Below are positions 1 to 11,664 of a DNA stretch of 15,256 nucleotides, in pieces. Below the pieces are notes generated by a model, which was not told the origin of the DNA, did not search any database, and was given only the letters and a program-made list of their open reading frames with translations. Every line of letters starts with the position of its first letter. Position 1 is the stretch's first letter. Source of the stretch: a virus; UHGV virus genome UHGV-0159580. The stretch is one strand, 5' to 3'. Both the position numbers and the translations under genes were made by a program.

Positions 1-435
1 TAAGTACTCTTTGTAGTTGTACAGTCGCTTTGTTAATGTGCACTCTTTGTCAAAATCAAACCGCAAGTCAGTTGTCAACGTAAATTTGCGCACACTTGAC
101 AAACACCATGCCTTGAATGCATTCCACAGAACATCTTGCTGAAATTCTGAGCAATGCTCAAGAGCAGCCTTTGAGCCCTGCCAGAATATTGCGCAATCAT
201 CTGATTTTGCGCACTTCAGCATATCTTGCCATGCATGTATGCTGTTGATAATATGCACCTTATCATGCACAAGCTCATCAAGTGTTGCATGTTTGTTCTC
301 AGGGTCGCCAAACACGTATACAGCATCAAACATTGTCTGCACAAAACCTGCAAATGCGATGGGTTCTGTATGTTTAAGATGCTGTATGTCTGAACGTACG
401 CATGTGTCAAATTTCAAAATGAAGAGTTTGCTCAT
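1..435 (-). CDS. Hypothetical protein, partial (C-terminal part lies beyond the window's left edge); not in the ORF track
   Basis: Manual translation of the minus strand shows one frame open from ATG at 435..433 to position 1 with no stop (about 145 codons, MSKLFILKFDTCVRSDIQHLKHTEPIAFAGFVQTMFDAVYVFGDPENKH...KRLYNYKEYL). Composition is protein-like. It overlaps the dCMP deaminase 3' end by 29 nt; an internal ATG at 333..331 would give a non-overlapping start. It competes with the Cys-rich 64-aa ORF 216..410. Confidence 0.45.
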   Translation of the reverse strand, partial: MSKLFILKFDTCVRSDIQHLKHTEPIAFAGFVQTMFDAVYVFGDPENKHATLDELVHDKVHIINSIHAWQDMLKCAKSDDCAIFWQGSKAALEHCSEFQQDVLWNAFKAWCLSSVRKFTLTTDLRFDFDKECTLTKRLYNYKEYL

Positions 436-1132
436 ATGCTTTGCAATTATCTATTACATGTTGATATTGTACTTCATCTATGATGTGATTTGCAATGACA
501 CCATATGAAGTGTCATACATTGGCATCTTCTCATATGACAACGCTGCGTCAAGATTGCATATCACATAATTGCAATGCGCAATGTCATCTACATTGTCAC
601 TAACTGCTACGATATTGACGCAATTTGCAAGAAATGCATCATCAAAGTCTACTTGATTGCATGCAACTTCATAATCTGCAGCGCTTCTTGGGTACCAATA
701 TAACTCAATGCCAGCGCTACTAAGTAGTCGCAAGCCATCTATGTGATGATACAAGTCAACAAAATGCACTTGCTTAACACCTGCTTGCAAAATGAGCTTT
801 GCACAATCAATGCATGGACTGTATGTTACATACAACACGGCGTCGTTTGCAGTTGCATTGCCATATTTGCATAGCTTCATCAATGCATTTGATTCTGCAT
901 GCAAAACTTCTTTGTTGGTTTTGATACCTGCTGATGTTGCATGCTCACAACAATTTGACATACCAGTTGGCATGCCATTATAGCCATCTGAAATTATGCA
1001 GCCATCTTTTACAAGCAATGCGCCAACTTTTGCTCGCTGAGCATGTGAATTTAATGACCAGAGCTCAGCCATTTTAAGATATATGAGATTTCGTTGAAAC
1101 CACTTCGTTTCAGACCAAGTTAGCCATTTCAT
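407..1132 (-). CDS. Deoxycytidylate (dCMP) deaminase, cytidine/dCMP deaminase zinc-binding family, with a C-terminal extension of about 90 aa of unknown function
   Basis: Complete ORF with ATG start. Carries the zinc-ligand motifs of the CMP/dCMP deaminase fold: HAESNAL (H-A-E) and SPCIDCAK (PCxxC), preceded by VGALLVKDGCIISDGYNGMPTG, typical of dCMP deaminases. Confidence 0.8.
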   Translation of the reverse strand: MKWLTWSETKWFQRNLIYLKMAELWSLNSHAQRAKVGALLVKDGCIISDGYNGMPTGMSNCCEHATSAGIKTNKEVLHAESNALMKLCKYGNATANDAVLYVTYSPCIDCAKLILQAGVKQVHFVDLYHHIDGLRLLSSAGIELYWYPRSAADYEVACNQVDFDDAFLANCVNIVAVSDNVDDIAHCNYVICNLDAALSYEKMPMYDTSYGVIANHIIDEVQYQHVIDNCKAYEQTLHFEI

Positions 1133-1136
1133 ATGC

Positions 1137-2525
1137 TTACAGCGAATTTATGATTTTGCTGAAGTCTGCTACAATGTTTGAATGTAGCTCAATGAGATAG
1201 TCGTCTTGCAATGTCATAAGCTCATCAAGTTCATCTACACTTAATGACTTGAAGACTTCTGCACAATGCTTAGCGTTTTTGATGCTTGCAACTTTGTGAT
1301 GCTTAATGAAATCAGGGCACACACAGTCATTCACATACATACAAGGCAAGCCTGCAAGCATTGATTCAATTGCTCTGAATGTAATTGCGTTGCATTGTTT
1401 CATATTCTCTTCACATACGACGTATGCAAAGTCGAACTGTGACAAGTATGTTAGCATATCAAAATACTTAACTGTGCCATCATAGACATGCGGCATATCA
1501 ATGTCGATATTGCCGACAACATGAGTTTCGATGTCTGCGCAGCCAAGCAAATCAATGATGTCTTGTTTACGTTCAGCACACATATCATTCCAAGCCACCA
1601 TCGGCATTGCAGTAGTTAACTTGCCTGATTGCAATTTTGCTAAATGTTTTTCGTTATGCGATGCATACAATGGAATGCCTTCAAGTCTTGCATGCTGAAT
1701 TGCATTGACGTTGATTTCTGTCAACATTGACAACGCATTATGCATGTTCTGCGCTTGTGTGACAATTGTCATCTTTTTGCAGTGCAATCTAAAGTTTGCA
1801 ATGTGTGGCACGAGTCGTAAATCATACCACAACCATACAATGTCACCCTTCCATGATTCAATGAGCTGCTTGTGCTGTTTGTAGATGACTGACTGACTCA
1901 TCGAGTCATTCATTGCTGAGCATACAATGTACAACACACCGTATTTGTCAATTGAGTGTTGCACATAGTCAACTGAGCAGCATAGCACATCTTTGTCGAA
2001 AAGTTTTGGGTCATGCACTTCTGCATCATCTACAATAAGATGTGCCTTGTATTGATGCTGCTTTGTTGCATCAATGATGCGAGCAATTGCAAAACATTCT
2101 CTACTTTGAATGTCTGTCTTATCTTGTCGTGGTTGGTCTTGTGTTCGTACAGGATACGCAGGCTTAAGTATTACGGGCACAAAATGCGTTTTTGCAGAAT
2201 ATGGCACATCTGCAGCAGCAAACTCCGCGTTGCATCGTCGTGAATGTAGATGTCGTGCATATGATTGCAACAATGCATGAATCATTGCAATGTACTCTTC
2301 CAATTCAAACACCTCGTGTTCAGTTGCGTTTGTTATGTCGACTACGACATTTTGTCGCACAATTGGATATACACAAATAGCATAGTCATTGTATGTCAGT
2401 GGAATGCCTATAAATGCTGTGCATTTGCTTCTAAGCCATACAATGCAATCAGCATCAAACACAATCTCATATTGCTGCTGCAAAGCATTTAATTGCGCTA
2501 TAATCAAATCATTGTGCATGTTCAT
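1137..2525 (-). CDS. Glycosyltransferase-like protein (GT-B fold, GT4-like C-terminal donor-binding motif); substrate unknown
   Basis: 462-aa ORF with ATG start, 4-nt gap to the downstream dCMP deaminase. The C-terminal region CEENMKQCNAITFRAIESMLAGLPCMYVND closely resembles the GT4/GT-B signature E-x7-E, roughly EGFGLxxLEAMAxGxPVI. The N-terminal half is unassigned. Confidence 0.5.
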   Translation of the reverse strand: MNMHNDLIIAQLNALQQQYEIVFDADCIVWLRSKCTAFIGIPLTYNDYAICVYPIVRQNVVVDITNATEHEVFELEEYIAMIHALLQSYARHLHSRRCNAEFAAADVPYSAKTHFVPVILKPAYPVRTQDQPRQDKTDIQSRECFAIARIIDATKQHQYKAHLIVDDAEVHDPKLFDKDVLCCSVDYVQHSIDKYGVLYIVCSAMNDSMSQSVIYKQHKQLIESWKGDIVWLWYDLRLVPHIANFRLHCKKMTIVTQAQNMHNALSMLTEINVNAIQHARLEGIPLYASHNEKHLAKLQSGKLTTAMPMVAWNDMCAERKQDIIDLLGCADIETHVVGNIDIDMPHVYDGTVKYFDMLTYLSQFDFAYVVCEENMKQCNAITFRAIESMLAGLPCMYVNDCVCPDFIKHHKVASIKNAKHCAEVFKSLSVDELDELMTLQDDYLIELHSNIVADFSKIINSL

Positions 2526-2563
2526 ATTGTTTTATCATATATGAATATATTGTACAACACAAA

Positions 2564-2577
2564 GTGCATACTTGCAC
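2564..2577. promoter_or_regulatory. Inverted repeat GTGCA-N4-TGCAC in a non-coding gap (candidate operator or promoter-associated site)
   Basis: gtgcaTACTtgcac at 2564..2577. The same half-site arrangement recurs at the centre of the 32-bp palindrome at 14622..14653. Confidence 0.25.
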
Positions 2578-2626
2578 GTTGTGTTGCTAAAAATGTCACC
2601 ATTGTACAACATGTATTGAGCTTTTG

Positions 2627-2663
2627 CACACAAAACAAGCAGACTGCAATTGCAGCCTGCTTG
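2627..2663 (-). terminator. Rho-independent terminator candidate for the minus-strand transcript downstream of CDS 2713..3258
   Basis: On the minus strand, CAAGCAGGCTGC-AATT-GCAGTCTGCTTG forms a 12-bp stem (one G-U pair) with a 4-nt loop, immediately followed by UUUUGUGUG. It lies in the 187-bp gap 2526..2712. Confidence 0.5.
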
Positions 2664-2712
2664 CACTTGTTTACTAACCCTTAAAATCAATGACACTATG
2701 TCAATGTCATTT

Positions 2713-3258
2713 TTACTTTGCGTCTGCTTCTTGCAATTCAGCTTCAGCAGTCTTTTCAGCGAGCTCAGCTTGCTTGCGCTTGTCAATTTCCTGCAAACAT
2801 GCGTCAAGTGCAGTGGCGTTTTCACGATACTGCTCATCGAACTTCTGCACTTCTGCTGCAGGAGCCTCAAGCAGATTGTTGAGCGAATCCAGTGCTGCAG
2901 CAACCTGAGCGCCCTTGAACTTTGTCGTTGATACTGCACGAACAATGTACTTGAACTCGAAGATGCCCATAGTGCTTCGTCCTTTTGCAGCGTCAGTAGC
3001 CCATGCAGCAAATGCGACAACGTCACGCATAAGTCGCATATCAAACTCAAGCTGCGGCAAAACAAGTTCGCACACATTACGTGCAACAGACTTAAGCAGC
3101 TCGCCATCAGTTGTGACAATCATCTGCATTGACTGCGATTTGTCTTCGAGTTCTTTTCGAGCTTCGCTGAGCGACTTTTCAAGTGCTTTCAGCTGCTCCA
3201 TTGTCATGTCTTTGAGTTCAGTTGCAGGCTTTGCTGCAACAGCATTTTTCTTTGCCAT
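2713..3258 (-). CDS. Hypothetical protein, Ala/Glu/Lys-rich with predicted coiled-coil termini
   Basis: 181-aa ORF with ATG start (MAKKNAVAAKP...) and protein-like composition. Preferred over the overlapping 2535..3119 ORF, which is Ser/Leu-rich low complexity. Confidence 0.7.
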   Translation of the reverse strand: MAKKNAVAAKPATELKDMTMEQLKALEKSLSEARKELEDKSQSMQMIVTTDGELLKSVARNVCELVLPQLEFDMRLMRDVVAFAAWATDAAKGRSTMGIFEFKYIVRAVSTTKFKGAQVAAALDSLNNLLEAPAAEVQKFDEQYRENATALDACLQEIDKRKQAELAEKTAEAELQEADAK

Positions 3259-3828: not shown

Positions 3829-4827
3829 TCAATGTTCAAGATGACATGCGCCATTCTGACAGCCTGTATTGCCATCTGACACGCTTGCAAGATTTGCATT
3901 GCTGCCACTACCAGCAGCTTTGCCAGCATTGCCAGATGAGCCAACAATGCTTATGAGTCTACTGTCAGACATTGCAGAGCCTGCATTAGCTGAACCTGAT
4001 TTGCTTGGCAATGATATTCTGGCTTCATCATAGTTGCCGCCGAAAGTGATGTTCAAGTCAAGTGTAGAATCATCACTGTCAATATCAATGTTGTGCTCGT
4101 AGTCTGTGATGATGTCATCGCCAGCCCATATGTTATCACCAGAATTGATTGCAGGATATTGCAAGTGCAGTGTCAATGGCAGCTTAATGACTGCATCAAT
4201 ATCTTCTTTGCCATGCACAATTGCATGCTGAGCATCCATAGAAGACACATCAAATTCATATGATGCGCCATGCATGGTGCCTGCCCAGACAAAGCCATAC
4301 ATGTTCAACTGATACAGCTTGCTAAGTAAATACTCGTAAGTCTCAAGCGCAGTTAACCAATCTGTTGAAAACACTTGCACATTGATAGCAAAATCTACTG
4401 GTATTCGTCTCATTGTGCTATACAATGCGACAGGCACACTGTCAATTGTGGCAATCAAACGAATCTGTGTATCTTGCATGCCAAGTGCTTGTTTGTTGAT
4501 TCGAGGCGACTCTACTTCAACAACACATCGCGGCACAGTTTGAACAAAGTTCTTTGCGTCAACAAATGCATTTTCAAGTGAATTTGTTGGTGTATTGCCA
4601 ACTGGACTTGAGCCTTTGCCAACAAGTTCACCCGACCAATATCGTTGGTCACCAGTGCTCAGCATGTATGTCGGCATATTCAGACGAGCATATAAATCAG
4701 ACAACAGGCCAATAAATGCATTACGAAAGAAGTGCTGAAATGTCACGTCTTTTGCATTGACTTGCTGTTTGATTGCAGCTTGAGCTGATTTCAGCTCAGC
4801 TGAGCTCCTGTTCAGTGAATCTTTCAT
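3829..4827 (-). CDS. Hypothetical protein with a Gly/Ser/Asn/Ala-rich C-terminal tail
   Basis: 332-aa ORF with ATG start and an ATGA overlap with the upstream gene. The low-complexity tail is SGSANAGSAMSDS...SSGNAGKAAGSGSNANLASVSDGNTG. Confidence 0.75.
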   Translation of the reverse strand: MKDSLNRSSAELKSAQAAIKQQVNAKDVTFQHFFRNAFIGLLSDLYARLNMPTYMLSTGDQRYWSGELVGKGSSPVGNTPTNSLENAFVDAKNFVQTVPRCVVEVESPRINKQALGMQDTQIRLIATIDSVPVALYSTMRRIPVDFAINVQVFSTDWLTALETYEYLLSKLYQLNMYGFVWAGTMHGASYEFDVSSMDAQHAIVHGKEDIDAVIKLPLTLHLQYPAINSGDNIWAGDDIITDYEHNIDIDSDDSTLDLNITFGGNYDEARISLPSKSGSANAGSAMSDSRLISIVGSSGNAGKAAGSGSNANLASVSDGNTGCQNGACHLEH

Positions 4828-5258
4828 TGGTCAAGCATATCATTAGCAGCTTTTTGCTGCATAACGAGTTTTAGCAAAGCGTCATTGCCCTGTGATTCAA
4901 GCATGTCTTTAGCTATGATGAGCTTGTTTGTGTATGACAACTGGTCCCAACAAAGCTTTGTGTCAAGCTCATAATACGTGTTGATTGCATCAAACACATC
5001 GATAAGCTGCAAAGCGCTTTTTGTTAACGCAGCGCATTTTGCGATGCACTCATTGTACTTTGTTGGCTCAATGAACTTGTATTTGCGAAGTCTTATTCTA
5101 ATGTACCTGTGATACGAAGACTTTTGCAAAAACTGTTCTATTGTAGATGTTGCTGATGCTACTACAGTGTCATCATTGATTGAAAGCTTGTCGTATTTGA
5201 TTTCAAACCGCTCAAGTTCAGTAGATAGCCATTCATTGTCAAATATCGACTTGCCCAT
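4824..5258 (-). CDS. Hypothetical protein
   Basis: 144-aa ORF with ATG start; its stop overlaps the next start (ATGA at 4824-4827). Confidence 0.7.
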   Translation of the reverse strand: MGKSIFDNEWLSTELERFEIKYDKLSINDDTVVASATSTIEQFLQKSSYHRYIRIRLRKYKFIEPTKYNECIAKCAALTKSALQLIDVFDAINTYYELDTKLCWDQLSYTNKLIIAKDMLESQGNDALLKLVMQQKAANDMLDQ

Positions 5259-9037: not shown

Positions 9038-10291
9038 TTATCTTGCATGGCCACAGTCATAAACTGCAACATAACCTGCATCAATCATCTCTTGCTCATT
9101 TTGTCCGCAGTCTTCAATATGCTCTTTTGTTTTGAGATGACACCAGTGTTTGCGAATTGTCGACCTGTCATCTGACAGATGTGGCTTAAGTGCGAAGTCA
9201 GTTGAATCTACAGGTTCACCTGCAAGATGCTTTCTAATGACGTCAATGACTTCATTGTCATCCATCCATTCGAATATTGTAATGCAAGTGTAGCCATGCT
9301 TGAGAGCAAGCTGAGTTTTGTCGAAGTGATATTGCGTGCCAGTCGGCCAATTGTCTTTTGATTTGCCAACAATATAAATGTATGACAATGTTGAATTATG
9401 CGTAATTGTTGGATTGACTTCAATCAATAACTTACAACAATCATTGACATAGCTAAGGTCATATGAACGATTTTCAATGTTAACTGCATCAAAATCACAC
9501 GCAATTCCAAGTTCTTGCAATAATTTGTCATGCCACCATTTATTTGCTTTTGATATGACTTTGCCTTGTGCTGTACGACATTTAGTAGTCATACAATGCC
9601 AAGGCACACCATAACGTTGCATACATGTTTCTGATACTTTACTCATATTGCCGCATCCATTGCCGTATCGCTCACGCTTTATTGCAACGCATTTAGCAAT
9701 GTCACCAAACCCATTACCATATCGCTCACGCTTTGTCGCAATTGATTTAGCAATGTTGCCTGGTCCCGCATTGCCATATCGCTCACGCTTTGTCGCATGA
9801 ATTTTGTCAATAGGCCCAATTGCATTGCCATATTTAGCAATCTTTGCAGCAACAGTCTTTTGCATAGTTTCAGCACTGCATACACCATTATCATAGCGTT
9901 CAAGCTTTGTTGCTACTGCTTTCTGCGGATTACCTGAACGTGCGCCATAGCGTGCAATATTTGTTGCTTCACATTTTTCTTTTGGCCCAAATGTGTTGCC
10001 ATACAGTAGCTTCTTTGTGGCTTGCTGACGTTCAAGAGGTCCTTGTGCATAACCATAGCGCTCAATATTTGTTTGCTTACTTTTATCAATGACTGATTGC
10101 ACAAGTCTACAACTTTCTACACCATATTTGCGTAAGCACCCAATTTTTGTGCCATATCGATTCTTAATTTTGCCGTGTACAGTGACATTTCTGCTCAACC
10201 GAATGTTCTCAGTTGTTCTCAACAACTCATCTCGCTCTTGCTCAAGTTCTGCAATTCGTTTCTCAAGAGCTTCACCAGTTAGTGGTGTCAT
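9038..10291 (-). CDS. Repeat-containing protein: N-terminal coiled coil, about 9-10 tandem repeats of about 21 aa with an (K/E)RYG(N) core, and a C-terminal Vsr/DUF559-like PD-(D/E)xK endonuclease-like domain (homing-endonuclease-like)
   Basis: 417-aa ORF with ATG start and an ATGA overlap with the upstream gene. Repeats include IATKRERYGNAGPGNIAKS, IATKRERYGNGFGDIAKCV and AIKRERYGNGCGNM. The C-terminus LLIEVNPTITHNS...HFDKTQLALKHGYTCITIFEW follows the Vsr/DUF559 pattern (IEvDG..H...D..R...L...GW.vlRf). The domain assignment is by motif only. Confidence 0.45.
   Translation of the reverse strand: MTPLTGEALEKRIAELEQERDELLRTTENIRLSRNVTVHGKIKNRYGTKIGCLRKYGVESCRLVQSVIDKSKQTNIERYGYAQGPLERQQATKKLLYGNTFGPKEKCEATNIARYGARSGNPQKAVATKLERYDNGVCSAETMQKTVAAKIAKYGNAIGPIDKIHATKRERYGNAGPGNIAKSIATKRERYGNGFGDIAKCVAIKRERYGNGCGNMSKVSETCMQRYGVPWHCMTTKCRTAQGKVISKANKWWHDKLLQELGIACDFDAVNIENRSYDLSYVNDCCKLLIEVNPTITHNSTLSYIYIVGKSKDNWPTGTQYHFDKTQLALKHGYTCITIFEWMDDNEVIDVIRKHLAGEPVDSTDFALKPHLSDDRSTIRKHWCHLKTKEHIEDCGQNEQEMIDAGYVAVYDCGHAR
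9657..9835. repeat. Tandem direct repeats of about 57-60 bp, at least three well-conserved copies, inside CDS 9038..10291
   Basis: attgccRtatcgctcacgcttt(a/g)t(t/c)gca... recurs at about 9657, 9713 and 9771, with degenerate copies continuing toward 10180. These encode the (K/E)RYG protein repeats. Confidence 0.8.
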
Positions 10292-11028
10292 TTCACTTCA
10301 GGTTTTGCTTGCTTGGCCAACTCAGCTTCAGCATTGAACTCTTTGCCCTCAGCTTTCATTGTTTCGGCATAAGTCTTTTCATCAGTATAGCGTTCTACAT
10401 CATCGCCAAGTAATTTTGCGACTTCATCATCTGCTTCAAACAATGGCTGTGGATTGTCATCGTTGTCATCTTTGAGTTGCTCAAATGTGCTGTTATGCTT
10501 TTCTGCAATTTTGATGAGGTCGACGATTGAACGAGTTACGAGTTCACCATTGATGCCTGACTGCTGTTCAGATTGACCAGAGCCTTGTTGCAATTCTGCT
10601 TGGGTTGCTCGAACATTATTGTTGAGTGACGCAAGTACATTGGGAAGCGTTCGACAATATGATATATATTGCTGAACCAACGACATTGCGTCATTCTGTA
10701 GTTTGATGAGAAACGCAAACTCACCCATGCCTCCGCCTTGTGCATCAATGCGCTCGAACACTGAATCAAGTGCATGCATTGCATAGAACACTTGTTTGCA
10801 AAGCAAATTGATGTTTGTCTTCTCCATCTCAATTGATGCATCAATAAACGGTGACTTGACATCAGCTGCTATGCACAATTTGCGAACTTCGTCAACGTAT
10901 TTTGAACACTTGTCAAGTGTTTTGTCAAGTTTGCTTCGGTCAAACTGCTTGTAAACTTCTAACGCATCGCTTACTTCTGCAGCATCCAATATTGCATTTG
11001 CTGCAGCCAATTCTGATTCTCTGCTCAT
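10288..11028 (-). CDS. Hypothetical protein with an acidic C-terminal region
   Basis: 246-aa ORF with ATG start. The overlapping 10536..10862 ORF is in another frame and less protein-like. Confidence 0.7.
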   Translation of the reverse strand: MSRESELAAANAILDAAEVSDALEVYKQFDRSKLDKTLDKCSKYVDEVRKLCIAADVKSPFIDASIEMEKTNINLLCKQVFYAMHALDSVFERIDAQGGGMGEFAFLIKLQNDAMSLVQQYISYCRTLPNVLASLNNNVRATQAELQQGSGQSEQQSGINGELVTRSIVDLIKIAEKHNSTFEQLKDDNDDNPQPLFEADDEVAKLLGDDVERYTDEKTYAETMKAEGKEFNAEAELAKQAKPEVK

Positions 11029-11049
11029 CTGCCAATAGTGTAAATATCG

Positions 11050-11664
11050 CTAGCGCAATATAGTCCAAGCTTCAATAATTGCTGAAAAATCTTCAAAGGG
11101 CATTGTAGTGTAGCCGGAATCACCCCAAGATACACCCCAGCTATTCTTAATGATGAATGAGTCTTTTGTGTAGCCGACAATTGACACTGCATGCCCACCA
11201 AAATTGCCATCGCCTTTCCAAAAATGCTCAGCATCAATGTCTTTTACGAGCATGCCAACAAAGACAGGCCCATTTGCTACAACAGCAGATTTGATTTCAT
11301 CAATTGTGTAGCAACGTCTGTATGCAGTTATTGGCAATTGCTCTGAGCCCTTTGACATCTTGATTGGCTGTGCTTTGAGCAGCTTAAAGACATCACGTGG
11401 AATCATGCCCTCTTGAGGTGCATTTGAACGACGCTCATACAATGCTTTGATGTCAAGCTTGCCTTGCATAGACAGCACAGAAGACCACCAGTCAATCATT
11501 GTTGCTGCTGTGTAAGCTGCACACATTGATGTACTGCCTTGGTCTTCTACTTGAAGTTGAGCCAACTTGTACACAAGTGGCAAATCTGTTTTTGCGTCAA
11601 AACGCAAGTCTCTGTCATCTTGAGGCGACTGGATGTAGCCCAGTCCATATGTCGTTTGTTTCAT
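11050..11664 (-). CDS. Papain-family (C1) cysteine peptidase, without propeptide or signal peptide
   Basis: All three catalytic-region signatures of C1A peptidases are present with papain-like spacing: VEDQGSTSMCAAYTA (oxyanion Gln six residues before the catalytic Cys, as papain Q19/C25), GGHAVSIVGY (catalytic His; papain DHAVAAVGY) and IKNSWGVSWGDSGY (catalytic Asn; papain IKNSWGTGWGENGY). Confidence 0.85.
   Translation of the reverse strand: MKQTTYGLGYIQSPQDDRDLRFDAKTDLPLVYKLAQLQVEDQGSTSMCAAYTAATMIDWWSSVLSMQGKLDIKALYERRSNAPQEGMIPRDVFKLLKAQPIKMSKGSEQLPITAYRRCYTIDEIKSAVVANGPVFVGMLVKDIDAEHFWKGDGNFGGHAVSIVGYTKDSFIIKNSWGVSWGDSGYTTMPFEDFSAIIEAWTILR

What the first reader, a model, noticed from the sequence alone, without database searches (positions are those of the whole stretch)
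1..435. Edge-truncated minus-strand gene missing from the ORF track; the listed 64-aa ORF 216..410 is probably an artefact
Manual translation shows a frame open from 435 to the window edge (at least 145 codons) with ordinary protein composition. The track ORF covering part of the same DNA (216..410) is Cys/His/Leu-rich and in another frame. Accepting the long frame means a 29-nt overlap with the dCMP deaminase 3' end (or a start at the internal ATG 333).
Basis: seen in the sequence. Interest (0 to 1): 0.4.

Follow-up and report, generated by a model that had tools for sequence, protein, structure and literature searches.

The report
Truncated phage glycosyltransferase gene, T4-like
The open frame at the window's left edge is a real gene, the first 145 of 388 codons of a phage sugar-transferring enzyme distantly related to the T4 enzyme that glucosylates DNA; the 64-codon ORF on the same DNA is a frame artefact.

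Summary
Observation confirmed. Window 435..1 on the minus strand is open for 145 codons and starts at ATG 433-435. An in-frame stop lies just upstream, at 451-453.

- **The long frame is coding.** It scores +0.24 bits per codon, like the window's other genes. Among four related sequences, 38 of 54 variable sites fall on its third codon positions.
- **ORF 216..410 is an artefact.** It scores -0.49 and carries two stops in a divergent relative.
- **Full length.** Two ~175-kb viral contigs carry the whole gene: 388 aa. The 29-nt overlap with the dCMP deaminase gene persists in a relative at 44% protein identity. The start is therefore ATG 435, not ATG 333.
- **Context.** Nearby are a paralogue, two weaker glycosyltransferase candidates, a kinase-like ORF, a divergent MilA-like thymidylate-synthase homologue and a canonical ThyA.

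Best reading, inferred and not shown: a DNA glycosyltransferase in a cytosine-hypermodification module. It is a new, very divergent member of a known kind. Interest is modest.

The parts
1..435 (-). Codons 1-145 of a 388-codon gene, cut by the window edge. It encodes most of the N-terminal Rossmann-like domain of a GT-B glycosyltransferase related to T4 DNA beta-glucosyltransferase. By analogy with other GT-B enzymes this is the acceptor-side domain.
433..435 (-). ATG start codon of the glycosyltransferase gene.
   Evidence: First start codon after the in-frame stop at 451-453. The N-terminus M-x-x-L-F/Y-I-x-K is conserved across the family. The same start and overlap occur in L003, L004 and L005.
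407..435 (-). 29-nt overlap between the 3' end of the dCMP deaminase gene (...HFEI*) and the 5' end of the glycosyltransferase gene. Probably a site of translational coupling; that is an inference.
   Evidence: ORF coordinates. The overlap has the same length in L003, L004 and L005, and the core TTCATTTTGAAATTTGA is invariant.
364..366 (-). Codon for Glu24 of the nearly invariant Glu-Pro motif. It aligns with Glu22 of T4 BGT.
   Evidence: Codon check. Nearly invariant in the family. Global hhalign pairs lkhEPiaf with vpssETiyl, with low confidence in this region.
67..69 (-). Codon for Asp123 in the motif T-D-L-R-F. It is the equivalent of the T4 BGT catalytic base Asp100 (motif T-D-I-R-L).
   Evidence: Codon check. 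Conserved in all ten full-length rows of the family alignment; the 189-aa fragment P0008 lacks this region. Aligned to T4 TDIRL by HMMER and by hhalign. PDB entry 1nzd is the BGT D100A mutant. Lariviere et al. 2003 is cited in bioRxiv 10.1101/2023.12.21.572611.
216..410 (-). The 64-aa TTG-initiated ORF from the ORF track. It is an out-of-frame artefact inside the glycosyltransferase gene.
   Evidence: Coding score -0.494. Substitutions in this frame are mostly amino-acid-changing. Two stops in L005.
239..508 (+). An 89-aa antisense ORF. Also an artefact.
   Evidence: Plus-strand frames score -0.25 to -0.36. Interrupted by a stop in L004.
407..1132 (-). Upstream neighbour: dCMP deaminase, 241 aa. 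The deaminase domain covers residues 17-150, followed by a ~90-aa C-terminal extension with no family match.
   Evidence: Pfam dCMP_cyt_deam_1 5.3e-21 and phrog_174 1.1e-43. The extension and the C-terminus HFEI are conserved in L005.

Best explanation
Window 435..1 on the minus strand is the 5' 37% of a genuine 388-codon gene of an uncultured, roughly 175-kb phage that is distantly T4-like. The product is a two-domain GT-B glycosyltransferase, and its closest relative of known structure is T4 DNA beta-glucosyltransferase.

Proposed mechanism (inferred). The C-terminal domain binds a nucleotide sugar through the equivalents of T4 Arg195, Arg269 and Glu272. Asp123, the equivalent of the T4 catalytic base Asp100 and encoded inside the window, activates an acceptor hydroxyl for direct-displacement transfer.

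Proposed acceptor (inferred). It is most likely a hydroxylated cytosine in phage DNA, either 5-hydroxymethyl-C or 5-hydroxy-C, or a sugar already attached to that base. The modified base would be made as a nucleotide by the divergent thymidylate-synthase homologue encoded about 13.6 kb downstream, then phosphorylated with the help of the neighbouring kinase-like protein. The gene would be one of several glycosyltransferases that build a glycan on the DNA, protecting it from host nucleases.

The gene is probably translated by coupling to the dCMP deaminase gene, which it overlaps by 29 nt.

Shown here: gene reality, the start codon, full length, fold, homology to T4 BGT, conservation of catalytic-type residues, and gene neighbourhood. 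Inferred: DNA as acceptor, the modified base, the sugar, and translational coupling.
For: Gene reality.
- Open frame of 145 codons.
- Coding score +0.243 against -0.494 for the rival ORF.
- 38 of 54 variable sites at codon position 3, P = 3e-8.
- Orthologues of 388-390 aa in L003, L004 and L005 with conserved synteny and the same 29-nt overlap.

Homology and fold.
- A family profile against PDB sequences hits T4 BGT 1bgt_A at E 4.2e-10, aligning TDLRF with TDIRL and LPNRWVEG with ITLRVWET.
- hhalign gives probability 94% and E 1.4e-7.
- AlphaFold2 with a 9-sequence alignment gives pLDDT 87.3 and pTM 0.89.
- The seven best-ranked Foldseek PDB hits are six T4 BGT entries and one OtsA chain, best E 2.8e-9.
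- The paralogue four genes downstream is 24% identical (E 7e-14). It matches phrog_7922 'beta-glucosyltransferase' at 1.4e-7.

Residues. Glu24, Asp123, Arg236, Arg310 and Glu313 align with T4 Glu22, Asp100, Arg195, Arg269 and Glu272.

Context, all on the same strand.
- dCMP deaminase.
- 518-aa and 412-aa ORFs with weak, sub-threshold GT47-type or GT1-type matches.
- A 190-aa P-loop ORF with weak thymidylate-kinase-like matches.
- A 293-aa thymidylate-synthase homologue whose best PDB sequence match is CMP 5-hydroxymethylase MilA (E 1.5e-22). It has Asp at the position where MilA has Asp, in the GxxxD motif. The same position is Asp in the best-scoring thymidylate-synthase chain.
- A KdsC-like sugar-phosphate phosphatase domain.
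- A separate canonical ThyA, Pfam 4e-76.

Precedent. Several glycosyltransferases plus a thymidylate-kinase-like kinase plus a MilA-like thymidylate-synthase homologue is the architecture of the experimentally characterised glycosyl-5-hydroxycytosine clusters of RB69, DLP3 and RL38J1 (PMC13326640).
Against: - There is no biochemical or DNA-composition evidence. The phage is known only from metagenomes.
- Sequence identity to T4 BGT is only about 12%.
- Pfam PF09198 (T4-Gluco-transf), which covers exactly the N-terminal domain encoded in the window, does not match any family member. It scores 9e-98 on T4 BGT itself.
- T4 Arg191 aligns with an invariant Leu.
- The N-terminal part of the alignment, including Glu24/Glu22, comes from a forced global alignment with low confidence.
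- The thymidylate-synthase homologue is separated from the glycosyltransferase genes by a large Mre11-Rad50-like ORF. Its activity, whether hydroxymethylase, hydroxylase or methylase, cannot be told from sequence.
Confidence: 0.62

Rival explanations
1. The gene is real and encodes a GT-B glycosyltransferase, but its acceptor is not DNA. It might glycosylate a host envelope glycan or lipid, a phage or host protein, or a small molecule. The resemblance to T4 BGT would then reflect only shared ancestry of fold.
Against: The two best structural matches in the whole PDB are the two T4 DNA glucosyltransferases. The only significant PDB sequence-profile hit with a glycosyltransferase function is T4 BGT. 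The cluster sits among DNA and nucleotide-metabolism genes: dCMP deaminase, a kinase-like ORF, Mre11-Rad50, two thymidylate-synthase-family genes and helicases. A second, MilA-like thymidylate-synthase homologue beside a canonical ThyA is hard to explain without a modified pyrimidine.
Confidence: 0.22
2. The gene is real and acts in DNA glycosylation, but on thymine-derived 5-hydroxymethyl-uracil rather than on a cytosine derivative. The adjacent dCMP deaminase would supply dUMP to a dUMP hydroxymethylase.
For: The gene overlaps and is probably co-translated with a dCMP deaminase, which makes dUMP. The thymidylate-synthase homologue also resembles phage enzymes annotated as dUMP hydroxymethyltransferases, at 42% to Agathobaculum phages and 29% to SPO1-like phages.
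Against: The thymidylate-synthase homologue has Asp where MilA, a CMP 5-hydroxymethylase, has Asp. The best-scoring thymidylate-synthase chains (1njc, 1njd) also have Asp there. From my own knowledge, not tested here, wild-type thymidylate synthase has Asn at this position and Asp there confers cytosine specificity. The best PDB match is a CMP hydroxymethylase. A canonical ThyA is also present, as in T4, which keeps thymine and modifies cytosine while also encoding a dCMP deaminase (the T4 gene content is from my own knowledge).
Confidence: 0.12
3. The long frame is a chance open frame or a decaying pseudogene, and the 64-aa ORF 216..410 (or no gene at all) is the functional unit.
For: The 64-aa ORF stays open in the three closest relatives. 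One 1,199-nt contig carries a frameshifted 83-aa version of the long frame, P0001.
Against: The chance of 145 open codons is about 6e-5. The third-position substitution bias has P = 3e-8. The full 388-390-aa frame is intact in L003, L004, L005, P0002 and P0003. The 64-aa ORF scores -0.49 and has two stops in L005. The AlphaFold model is confident.
Confidence: 0.01

Closest known systems
Bacteriophage T4 DNA beta-glucosyltransferase (BGT; PDB 1bgt, 1c3j, 1qkj, 1nzd; Pfam PF09198; CAZy GT63 from my own knowledge)
   Different: About 12% sequence identity. Not detected by Pfam PF09198. Not detected in any of 50,697 phage records by tblastn at E <= 1e-3. T4 Arg191 is replaced by an invariant Leu. 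There is an insertion of about 40 residues between the domains (helices ~176-211). It occurs as two paralogues beside at least two further glycosyltransferase candidates, which suggests an oligosaccharide rather than a single glucose. The donor sugar and the acceptor are unknown.
Bacteriophage T4 DNA alpha-glucosyltransferase (AGT; PDB 1y6f)
   Different: No detectable sequence similarity in the PDB profile search. AGT is a retaining enzyme (from my own knowledge), whereas the conserved Asp base suggests BGT-like inverting chemistry here.
Glycosyl-5-hydroxycytosine and glycosyl-5hmC hypermodification clusters of RB69, DLP3, RL38J1 and metavirome gene clusters (PMC13326640; bioRxiv 10.1101/2023.12.21.572611)
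   Same: Cluster logic: several GT-B glycosyltransferases, a thymidylate-kinase-like nucleotide kinase, a thymidylate-synthase homologue whose best structural or sequence match is MilA, and a sugar-phosphate phosphatase.
   Different: The glycosyltransferases in those clusters resemble GT4-type enzymes such as BshA, PimA and sucrose-phosphate synthase rather than BGT. Here the module is split by a Mre11-Rad50-like ORF. Within the ~45 kb examined, no nucleotidyltransferase or isomerase for sugar activation was seen.
PHROG families phrog_32512 (unknown function) and phrog_7922 ('beta-glucosyltransferase')
   Same: Family members P0009, P0011, P0007 and P0004 match phrog_32512 at 7.6e-14 to 5.8e-5. 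The paralogues match phrog_7922 at about 1e-8.
   Different: The window gene's own orthologue reaches only E 0.021 against phrog_32512, and P0002 matches nothing. It lies outside both families at normal thresholds.

Membership tests
Protein-coding gene (versus chance ORF) | Open reading frame much longer than chance, with codon usage like the genome's other genes | tested here: met
   145 codons open, chance about 6e-5. Score +0.243 bits per codon, against 0.03-0.41 for 19 other genes.
Protein-coding gene (versus chance ORF) | Purifying selection in that frame, and conservation of the intact frame in relatives | tested here: met
   Variable sites 12/4/38 by codon position, P = 3e-8. Intact 388-390-aa orthologues down to 44% identity.
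GT-B fold glycosyltransferases | Two Rossmann-like beta/alpha/beta domains with a C-terminal helix crossing back | tested here: met
T4 beta-glucosyltransferase family (Pfam PF09198 T4-Gluco-transf) | Match to the Pfam model above its gathering score | tested here: not met
   No Pfam hit at E <= 1 for P0002, P0004, P0005, P0006, P0007, P0009 or P0011, while T4 BGT scores 9.4e-98 in the same scan. No hit for the 145-aa fragment.
T4 beta-glucosyltransferase superfamily (distant homology) | Significant profile-level sequence similarity, with T4 BGT as the best structural match | tested here: met
T4 beta-glucosyltransferase superfamily (distant homology) | Catalytic base Asp100 in the T-D-x-R motif | tested here: met
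   Asp123 is present in all ten full-length rows of the alignment and aligns to Asp100. The codon is at window 67-69.
T4 beta-glucosyltransferase superfamily (distant homology) | UDP-phosphate-binding residues Arg191, Arg195, Arg269 and Glu272, plus Glu22 (roles recalled from Morera and Lariviere structures, my own knowledge) | tested here: inconclusive
   Arg236, Arg310, Glu313 and Glu24 align with Arg195, Arg269, Glu272 and Glu22. Arg191 aligns with an invariant Leu232. The N-terminal part of the alignment has low confidence.
DNA glycosyltransferase (functional class) | Transfers a sugar from a nucleotide sugar to a hydroxylated base, or to a base-linked sugar, in duplex DNA | not testable with these tools
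   Only contextual support: a MilA-like thymidylate-synthase homologue plus ThyA, a kinase-like ORF, dCMP deaminase and a paralogous glycosyltransferase.
Phage pyrimidine-hypermodification gene cluster | A thymidylate-synthase-family enzyme distinct from ThyA that makes the modified nucleotide, together with transferases | tested here: met
   A 293-aa thymidylate-synthase homologue: Pfam 3.7e-24, best PDB sequence match MilA at 1.5e-22, Asp at the position of MilA's Asp. A separate canonical ThyA of 352 aa at 4.3e-76 on the same contig. The presence of these genes is shown; their activities are not.

The most novel reading that the evidence does not exclude
The gene and its paralogue would found a previously unrecognised, very small branch of BGT-like enzymes. 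Only 10 proteins in 1.84 billion representatives score E <= 1e-3. These two would work with the two GT47-like candidates, a KdsC-like sugar-phosphate phosphatase and a MilA-like thymidylate-synthase homologue. Together they would build a complex and possibly new oligosaccharide, perhaps containing an unusual or acidic sugar, on cytosine in the DNA of an uncultured ~175-kb T4-superfamily phage. The lack of Shine-Dalgarno motifs and the best hits to Chryseobacterium, Bacteroides and Maribacter phages hint at a Bacteroidota host.
Probability: 0.25. Interest if true: 0.6.

Novelty: new member of a known kind. Interest (0 to 1): 0.35.

Why it matters
For annotation, the window's left edge carries a real gene that a stop-to-stop ORF lister cannot report. 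The short ORF listed in its place should be dropped. The 29-nt gene overlap is genuine and conserved.

Biologically, the gene extends the family of the textbook T4 DNA beta-glucosyltransferase to a lineage so divergent that Pfam, PHROGs, NCBIfam and tblastn against 50,697 phage records all miss it. It also flags a multi-glycosyltransferase locus that probably hypermodifies phage DNA.

Such enzymes matter for understanding how phages evade restriction and CRISPR. They are also used as reagents; T4 BGT is the standard tool for labelling 5hmC. The interest is nevertheless moderate. The kind of system is already well known and nothing here contradicts it.

Tried and rejected
- Megablast of window 1-3000 against phage records: no match.
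- tblastn of the full-length protein against phage records: no match at E <= 1e-3.
- Pfam, PHROGs and NCBIfam on the fragment and on the full-length protein: nothing, except a weak phrog_32512 hit at E 0.021.
- Profile of the four closest sequences against PDB sequences: no hit. The hit to T4 BGT appeared only after adding distant members and paralogues.
- First AlphaFold run with a 4-sequence alignment: unusable, pLDDT 43.6.
- The apparent stop of the gene in L002 was rejected as an artefact. The last 22 nt of that contig read AGATCGGAAGAGCGTCGTGTAG, which I recognise from my own knowledge as Illumina adapter sequence. The IMG/VR orthologues read on for about 60 more codons.
- Start at ATG 333 or TTG 417: rejected. 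The Met is not conserved, and either start would remove the conserved first beta-strand.
- Paralogy of the 388-aa protein with the 518-aa and 462-aa neighbours: not detectable by BLASTP. The 462-aa ORF remains uncharacterised.
- Exact-protein look-up of the 171-aa ORF at the far end of the window, to extend the contig: not on record.
- The third homologous-protein search, made with the profile, added only P0011.
- tRNA scans of the window, L003 and L004: none found.

Full report
**1. The observation**

The minus-strand frame that begins at window position 435 translates without a stop to position 1. It gives 145 codons, MSKLFILKFDTCVRSD...NYKEYL. The nearest in-frame upstream stop is TAG at 451-453, so ATG 433-435 is the first possible start. 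The other two minus-strand frames contain 5 and 13 stops.

With this base composition the chance that 145 codons stay open is about 6e-5. Only 1 of 20,000 shuffles was stop-free.

The ORF tool omits this frame simply because it does not list ORFs that run off the end of the source. The dCMP deaminase ORF 407..1132 (-) is confirmed (Pfam 5.3e-21, phrog_174 1.1e-43). The overlap with it is exactly 29 nt.

**2. Which frame is coding**

I trained a codon log-odds score on 19 other minus-strand genes of the window.
- The long frame scores +0.243 bits per codon, within the 0.03-0.41 range of those genes scored leave-one-out.
- ORF 216..410 scores -0.494.
- All other frames over 1..435 score negative.

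An exact-protein look-up of the deaminase gave two contigs, L001 and L002. A scan of IMG/VR gave two contigs of about 175 kb, L003 and L004. Over the 435 nt these sequences are 92-94% identical to the window.

Of 54 variable sites, 12, 4 and 38 fall on codon positions 1, 2 and 3 of the long frame. The binomial P is 3e-8. In the other two frames most changes alter the amino acid.

The 64-aa ORF is still open in these close relatives, which have little power to break it. It has two stops in the divergent relative L005. The antisense 89-aa ORF 239..508 (+) is broken in L004.

**3. Extending leftwards**

In L002 the frame continues to codon 336. However, the last 22 nt of that contig read AGATCGGAAGAGCGTCGTGTAG, which I recognise from my own knowledge as Illumina adapter sequence. 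Its terminal TAG is therefore an artefact.

In L003 and L004 the gene is complete at 388 aa (10001-11167). It is followed by a 518-aa ORF with a 4-nt overlap.

The protein database holds 388-aa versions at 95% and 85% identity (P0002, P0003) and a 390-aa orthologue at 44% (P0004). The contig carrying P0004, L005, has the same gene order: peptidase C1, gp32-like, helicase, thioredoxin, several unknowns, dCMP deaminase, this gene, the GT47-like ORF and the 190-aa ORF. It has the same 29-nt overlap. The core TTCATTTTGAAATTTGA is invariant because it encodes both ...HFEI* and LFILKFD.

The N-terminus MxxLFIxK is conserved across the family and forms the first beta-strand of the model. The Met encoded at 333 is not conserved. 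The start is therefore ATG 435.

**4. What the protein is**

Pfam, PHROGs and NCBIfam give nothing significant for the fragment or for the full-length protein. tblastn against 50,697 phage records finds nothing.

An exhaustive HMMER search of 1.84 billion representative proteins finds only 10 proteins at E <= 1e-3.
- One of them, P0010, is a repetitive false positive.
- Another, P0007, is a 391-aa paralogue encoded four genes downstream in L003 and L004. It is 24% identical over 345 residues (E 7e-14).
- That paralogue and P0011 match phrog_7922 'beta-glucosyltransferase' (1.4e-8 and 8e-6).

A profile of 11 family sequences hits T4 DNA beta-glucosyltransferase among all PDB sequences at E 4.2e-10. 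It aligns TDLRF to T4 TDIRL and LPNRWVEG to T4 ITLRVWET. hhalign gives probability 94%. The T4 sequence I used was verified as 100% identical to the T4 record.

AlphaFold2 with four sequences failed (pLDDT 43.6). With nine sequences it gave pLDDT 87.3 and pTM 0.89. The model has two Rossmann-like domains plus a long C-terminal helix.
- The seven best-ranked Foldseek PDB hits are six T4 BGT entries and one OtsA chain, best E 2.8e-9.

In a global profile alignment, Glu24, Asp123, Arg236, Arg310 and Glu313 pair with T4 Glu22, Asp100, Arg195, Arg269 and Glu272. T4 Arg191 pairs with an invariant Leu.

Asp100 is the catalytic base of T4 BGT. This rests on the PDB title of 1nzd and on Lariviere et al. 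2003, as cited in bioRxiv 10.1101/2023.12.21.572611. Its equivalent, Asp123, is encoded inside the window at 67-69.

The window fragment thus encodes most of the N-terminal domain. In GT-B enzymes generally this is the acceptor-side domain (my own knowledge).

Pfam PF09198, which models exactly that domain of T4 BGT, does not recognise any family member. The protein is therefore a distant relative and not a member of that Pfam family.

**5. Context and likely role**

All genes of the region lie on one strand. I viewed about 45 kb by combining the window with L003, L006 and L007. In transcription order they are:

1. peptidase C1
2. two unknown ORFs (246 and 417 aa)
3. gp32-like single-strand DNA-binding protein
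4. UvsW-like helicase
5. an unknown ORF (151 aa)
6. thioredoxin
7. four unknown ORFs
8. a 462-aa unknown ORF
9. dCMP deaminase
10. **the 388-aa BGT-like glycosyltransferase**
11. a 518-aa ORF with a weak GT47 match
12. a 190-aa P-loop ORF with weak thymidylate-kinase-like matches
13. a 71-aa ORF
14. a 244-aa membrane protein
15. the 391-aa BGT-like paralogue
16. a 412-aa ORF with weak GT47 and Glyco_trans_1_2 matches
17. a 136-aa ORF
18. a fused Mre11-Rad50-like ORF of about 1,300 aa
19. a 110-aa ORF
20. a 364-aa ORF with a KdsC-like sugar-phosphate phosphatase domain
21. a 293-aa thymidylate-synthase homologue
22. a 118-aa ORF
23. a DinG-like helicase
24. a 227-aa ORF
25. a canonical 352-aa ThyA

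The best PDB sequence match of the 293-aa thymidylate-synthase homologue is the CMP 5-hydroxymethylase MilA (1.5e-22). Thymidylate synthases reach at best 5e-14 and T4 dCMP hydroxymethylase 8e-12. The homologue carries Asp (GFCND) at the position where MilA has Asp, and the best-scoring thymidylate-synthase chains (1njc, 1njd) also have Asp there. From my own knowledge, wild-type thymidylate synthase has Asn at this position and Asp confers cytosine specificity.

So the phage has a ThyA plus a second, cytosine-type thymidylate-synthase homologue plus a dCMP deaminase plus BGT-like transferases. This is the T4 logic.

The combination of several glycosyltransferases, a thymidylate-kinase-like kinase, a MilA-like thymidylate-synthase homologue and a sugar phosphatase also mirrors known clusters. 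These are the experimentally characterised glycosyl-5-hydroxycytosine clusters of RB69, DLP3 and RL38J1 (PMC13326640).

I therefore infer that the gene is one of several DNA glycosyltransferases decorating a hydroxylated cytosine. The sugar, the linkage and whether it adds the first or a later sugar are unknown.

The main rival is a non-DNA acceptor. It cannot be excluded from sequence, and I give it about 0.2.

**6. Novelty and verdict**

The annotation should show a partial CDS at complement(<1..435).

The protein is a new and very divergent member of the BGT-like DNA glycosyltransferases, in an uncultured phage lineage. Its UvsW-like helicase is at most 31% identical to that of any sequenced phage. 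The kind of system is known, so interest is modest at 0.35. The locus may nevertheless be worth heterologous reconstitution, because four candidate glycosyltransferases suggest a complex DNA glycan.

Noticed in passing
L002:3070-3091: The Logan contig SRR29820833_18463 ends in AGATCGGAAGAGCGTCGTGTAG, which I recognise as Illumina adapter sequence. This creates a false TAG stop and a false C-terminus (..DRKSVV*) for the gene. A gene caller would report a 336-aa 'complete' protein there.
   Followed up: yes
window 1 (edge); L001:11126; P0001: Three independent assemblies break or go wrong inside this gene. The window ends at codon 145 and L001 at codon 143. P0001, from a 1,199-nt ENA contig, jumps frame after codon 60. 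The C-terminal half differs strongly between L003 and L004 (85% identity overall). Strain-level variation may be fragmenting the assemblies here.
   Followed up: partly
window, 24 nt upstream of each of 19 start codons: No Shine-Dalgarno-like purine-rich motif is visible upstream of any gene. Many genes overlap by 4 nt (ATGA). This suggests a host that does not rely on Shine-Dalgarno motifs, possibly Bacteroidota. The thymidylate-synthase homologue's best cultured-phage hits are Chryseobacterium, Bacteroides and Maribacter phages.
   Followed up: partly
window 407-680 (-), residues ~150-241 of the dCMP deaminase: The dCMP deaminase carries a ~90-aa C-terminal extension with no family match. 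The extension is conserved in length, and its C-terminus HFEI is conserved, in the 44%-identity relative L005. Its function is unknown.
   Followed up: partly
L003:17404-20987, continuing to L006:2577 (-): A single ORF of about 1,300 aa combines an N-terminal Mre11-like phosphoesterase (Metallophos) with a Rad50-like ATPase (AAA_23 and long coiled coil). In T4 these are two genes, 47 and 46 (my own knowledge). As in T4, the ORF lies next to glycosyltransferase genes.
   Followed up: partly
L006:212-1093 (-) = L007:10001-10882; L007:14108-15166: The contig holds two thymidylate-synthase-family genes. One is a divergent 293-aa MilA-like homologue with Asp at the position of MilA's Asp. The other is a canonical 352-aa ThyA (Pfam 4e-76). 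This implies a modified pyrimidine, probably cytosine, in this phage's DNA.
   Followed up: partly
L006:1118-2212 (-): A 364-aa ORF whose N-terminal ~140 residues resemble KdsC and KDN-9-P phosphatases of the HAD family (TIGR01670 1.9e-9, below cut-off). It lies beside the thymidylate-synthase homologue and may take part in making the sugar donor.
   Followed up: no
window 1137-2525 (-): A 462-aa ORF immediately upstream of the deaminase has no match in Pfam, PHROGs, NCBIfam or PDB sequences. It is conserved in L003, L004 and L005 (460-494 aa). Its C-terminal third reads like a GT-B donor-domain motif (..FRAIESMLAGLPCMYV..), but this was not tested.
   Followed up: partly
window 2535-3119 (-) and 2713-3258 (-): Two long overlapping minus-strand ORFs lie in different frames. 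The 181-aa ATG ORF has the highest coding score in the window (0.41). The 194-aa TTG ORF is Leu/Ser/Cys-rich and is probably another frame artefact.
   Followed up: no
window 4824-5258 (-): A 144-aa ORF gives a weak, sub-threshold hit to the PhiKZ vertex-binding protein gp85 family (E 0.004). This is curious in a genome whose replication genes are otherwise T4-like.
   Followed up: no
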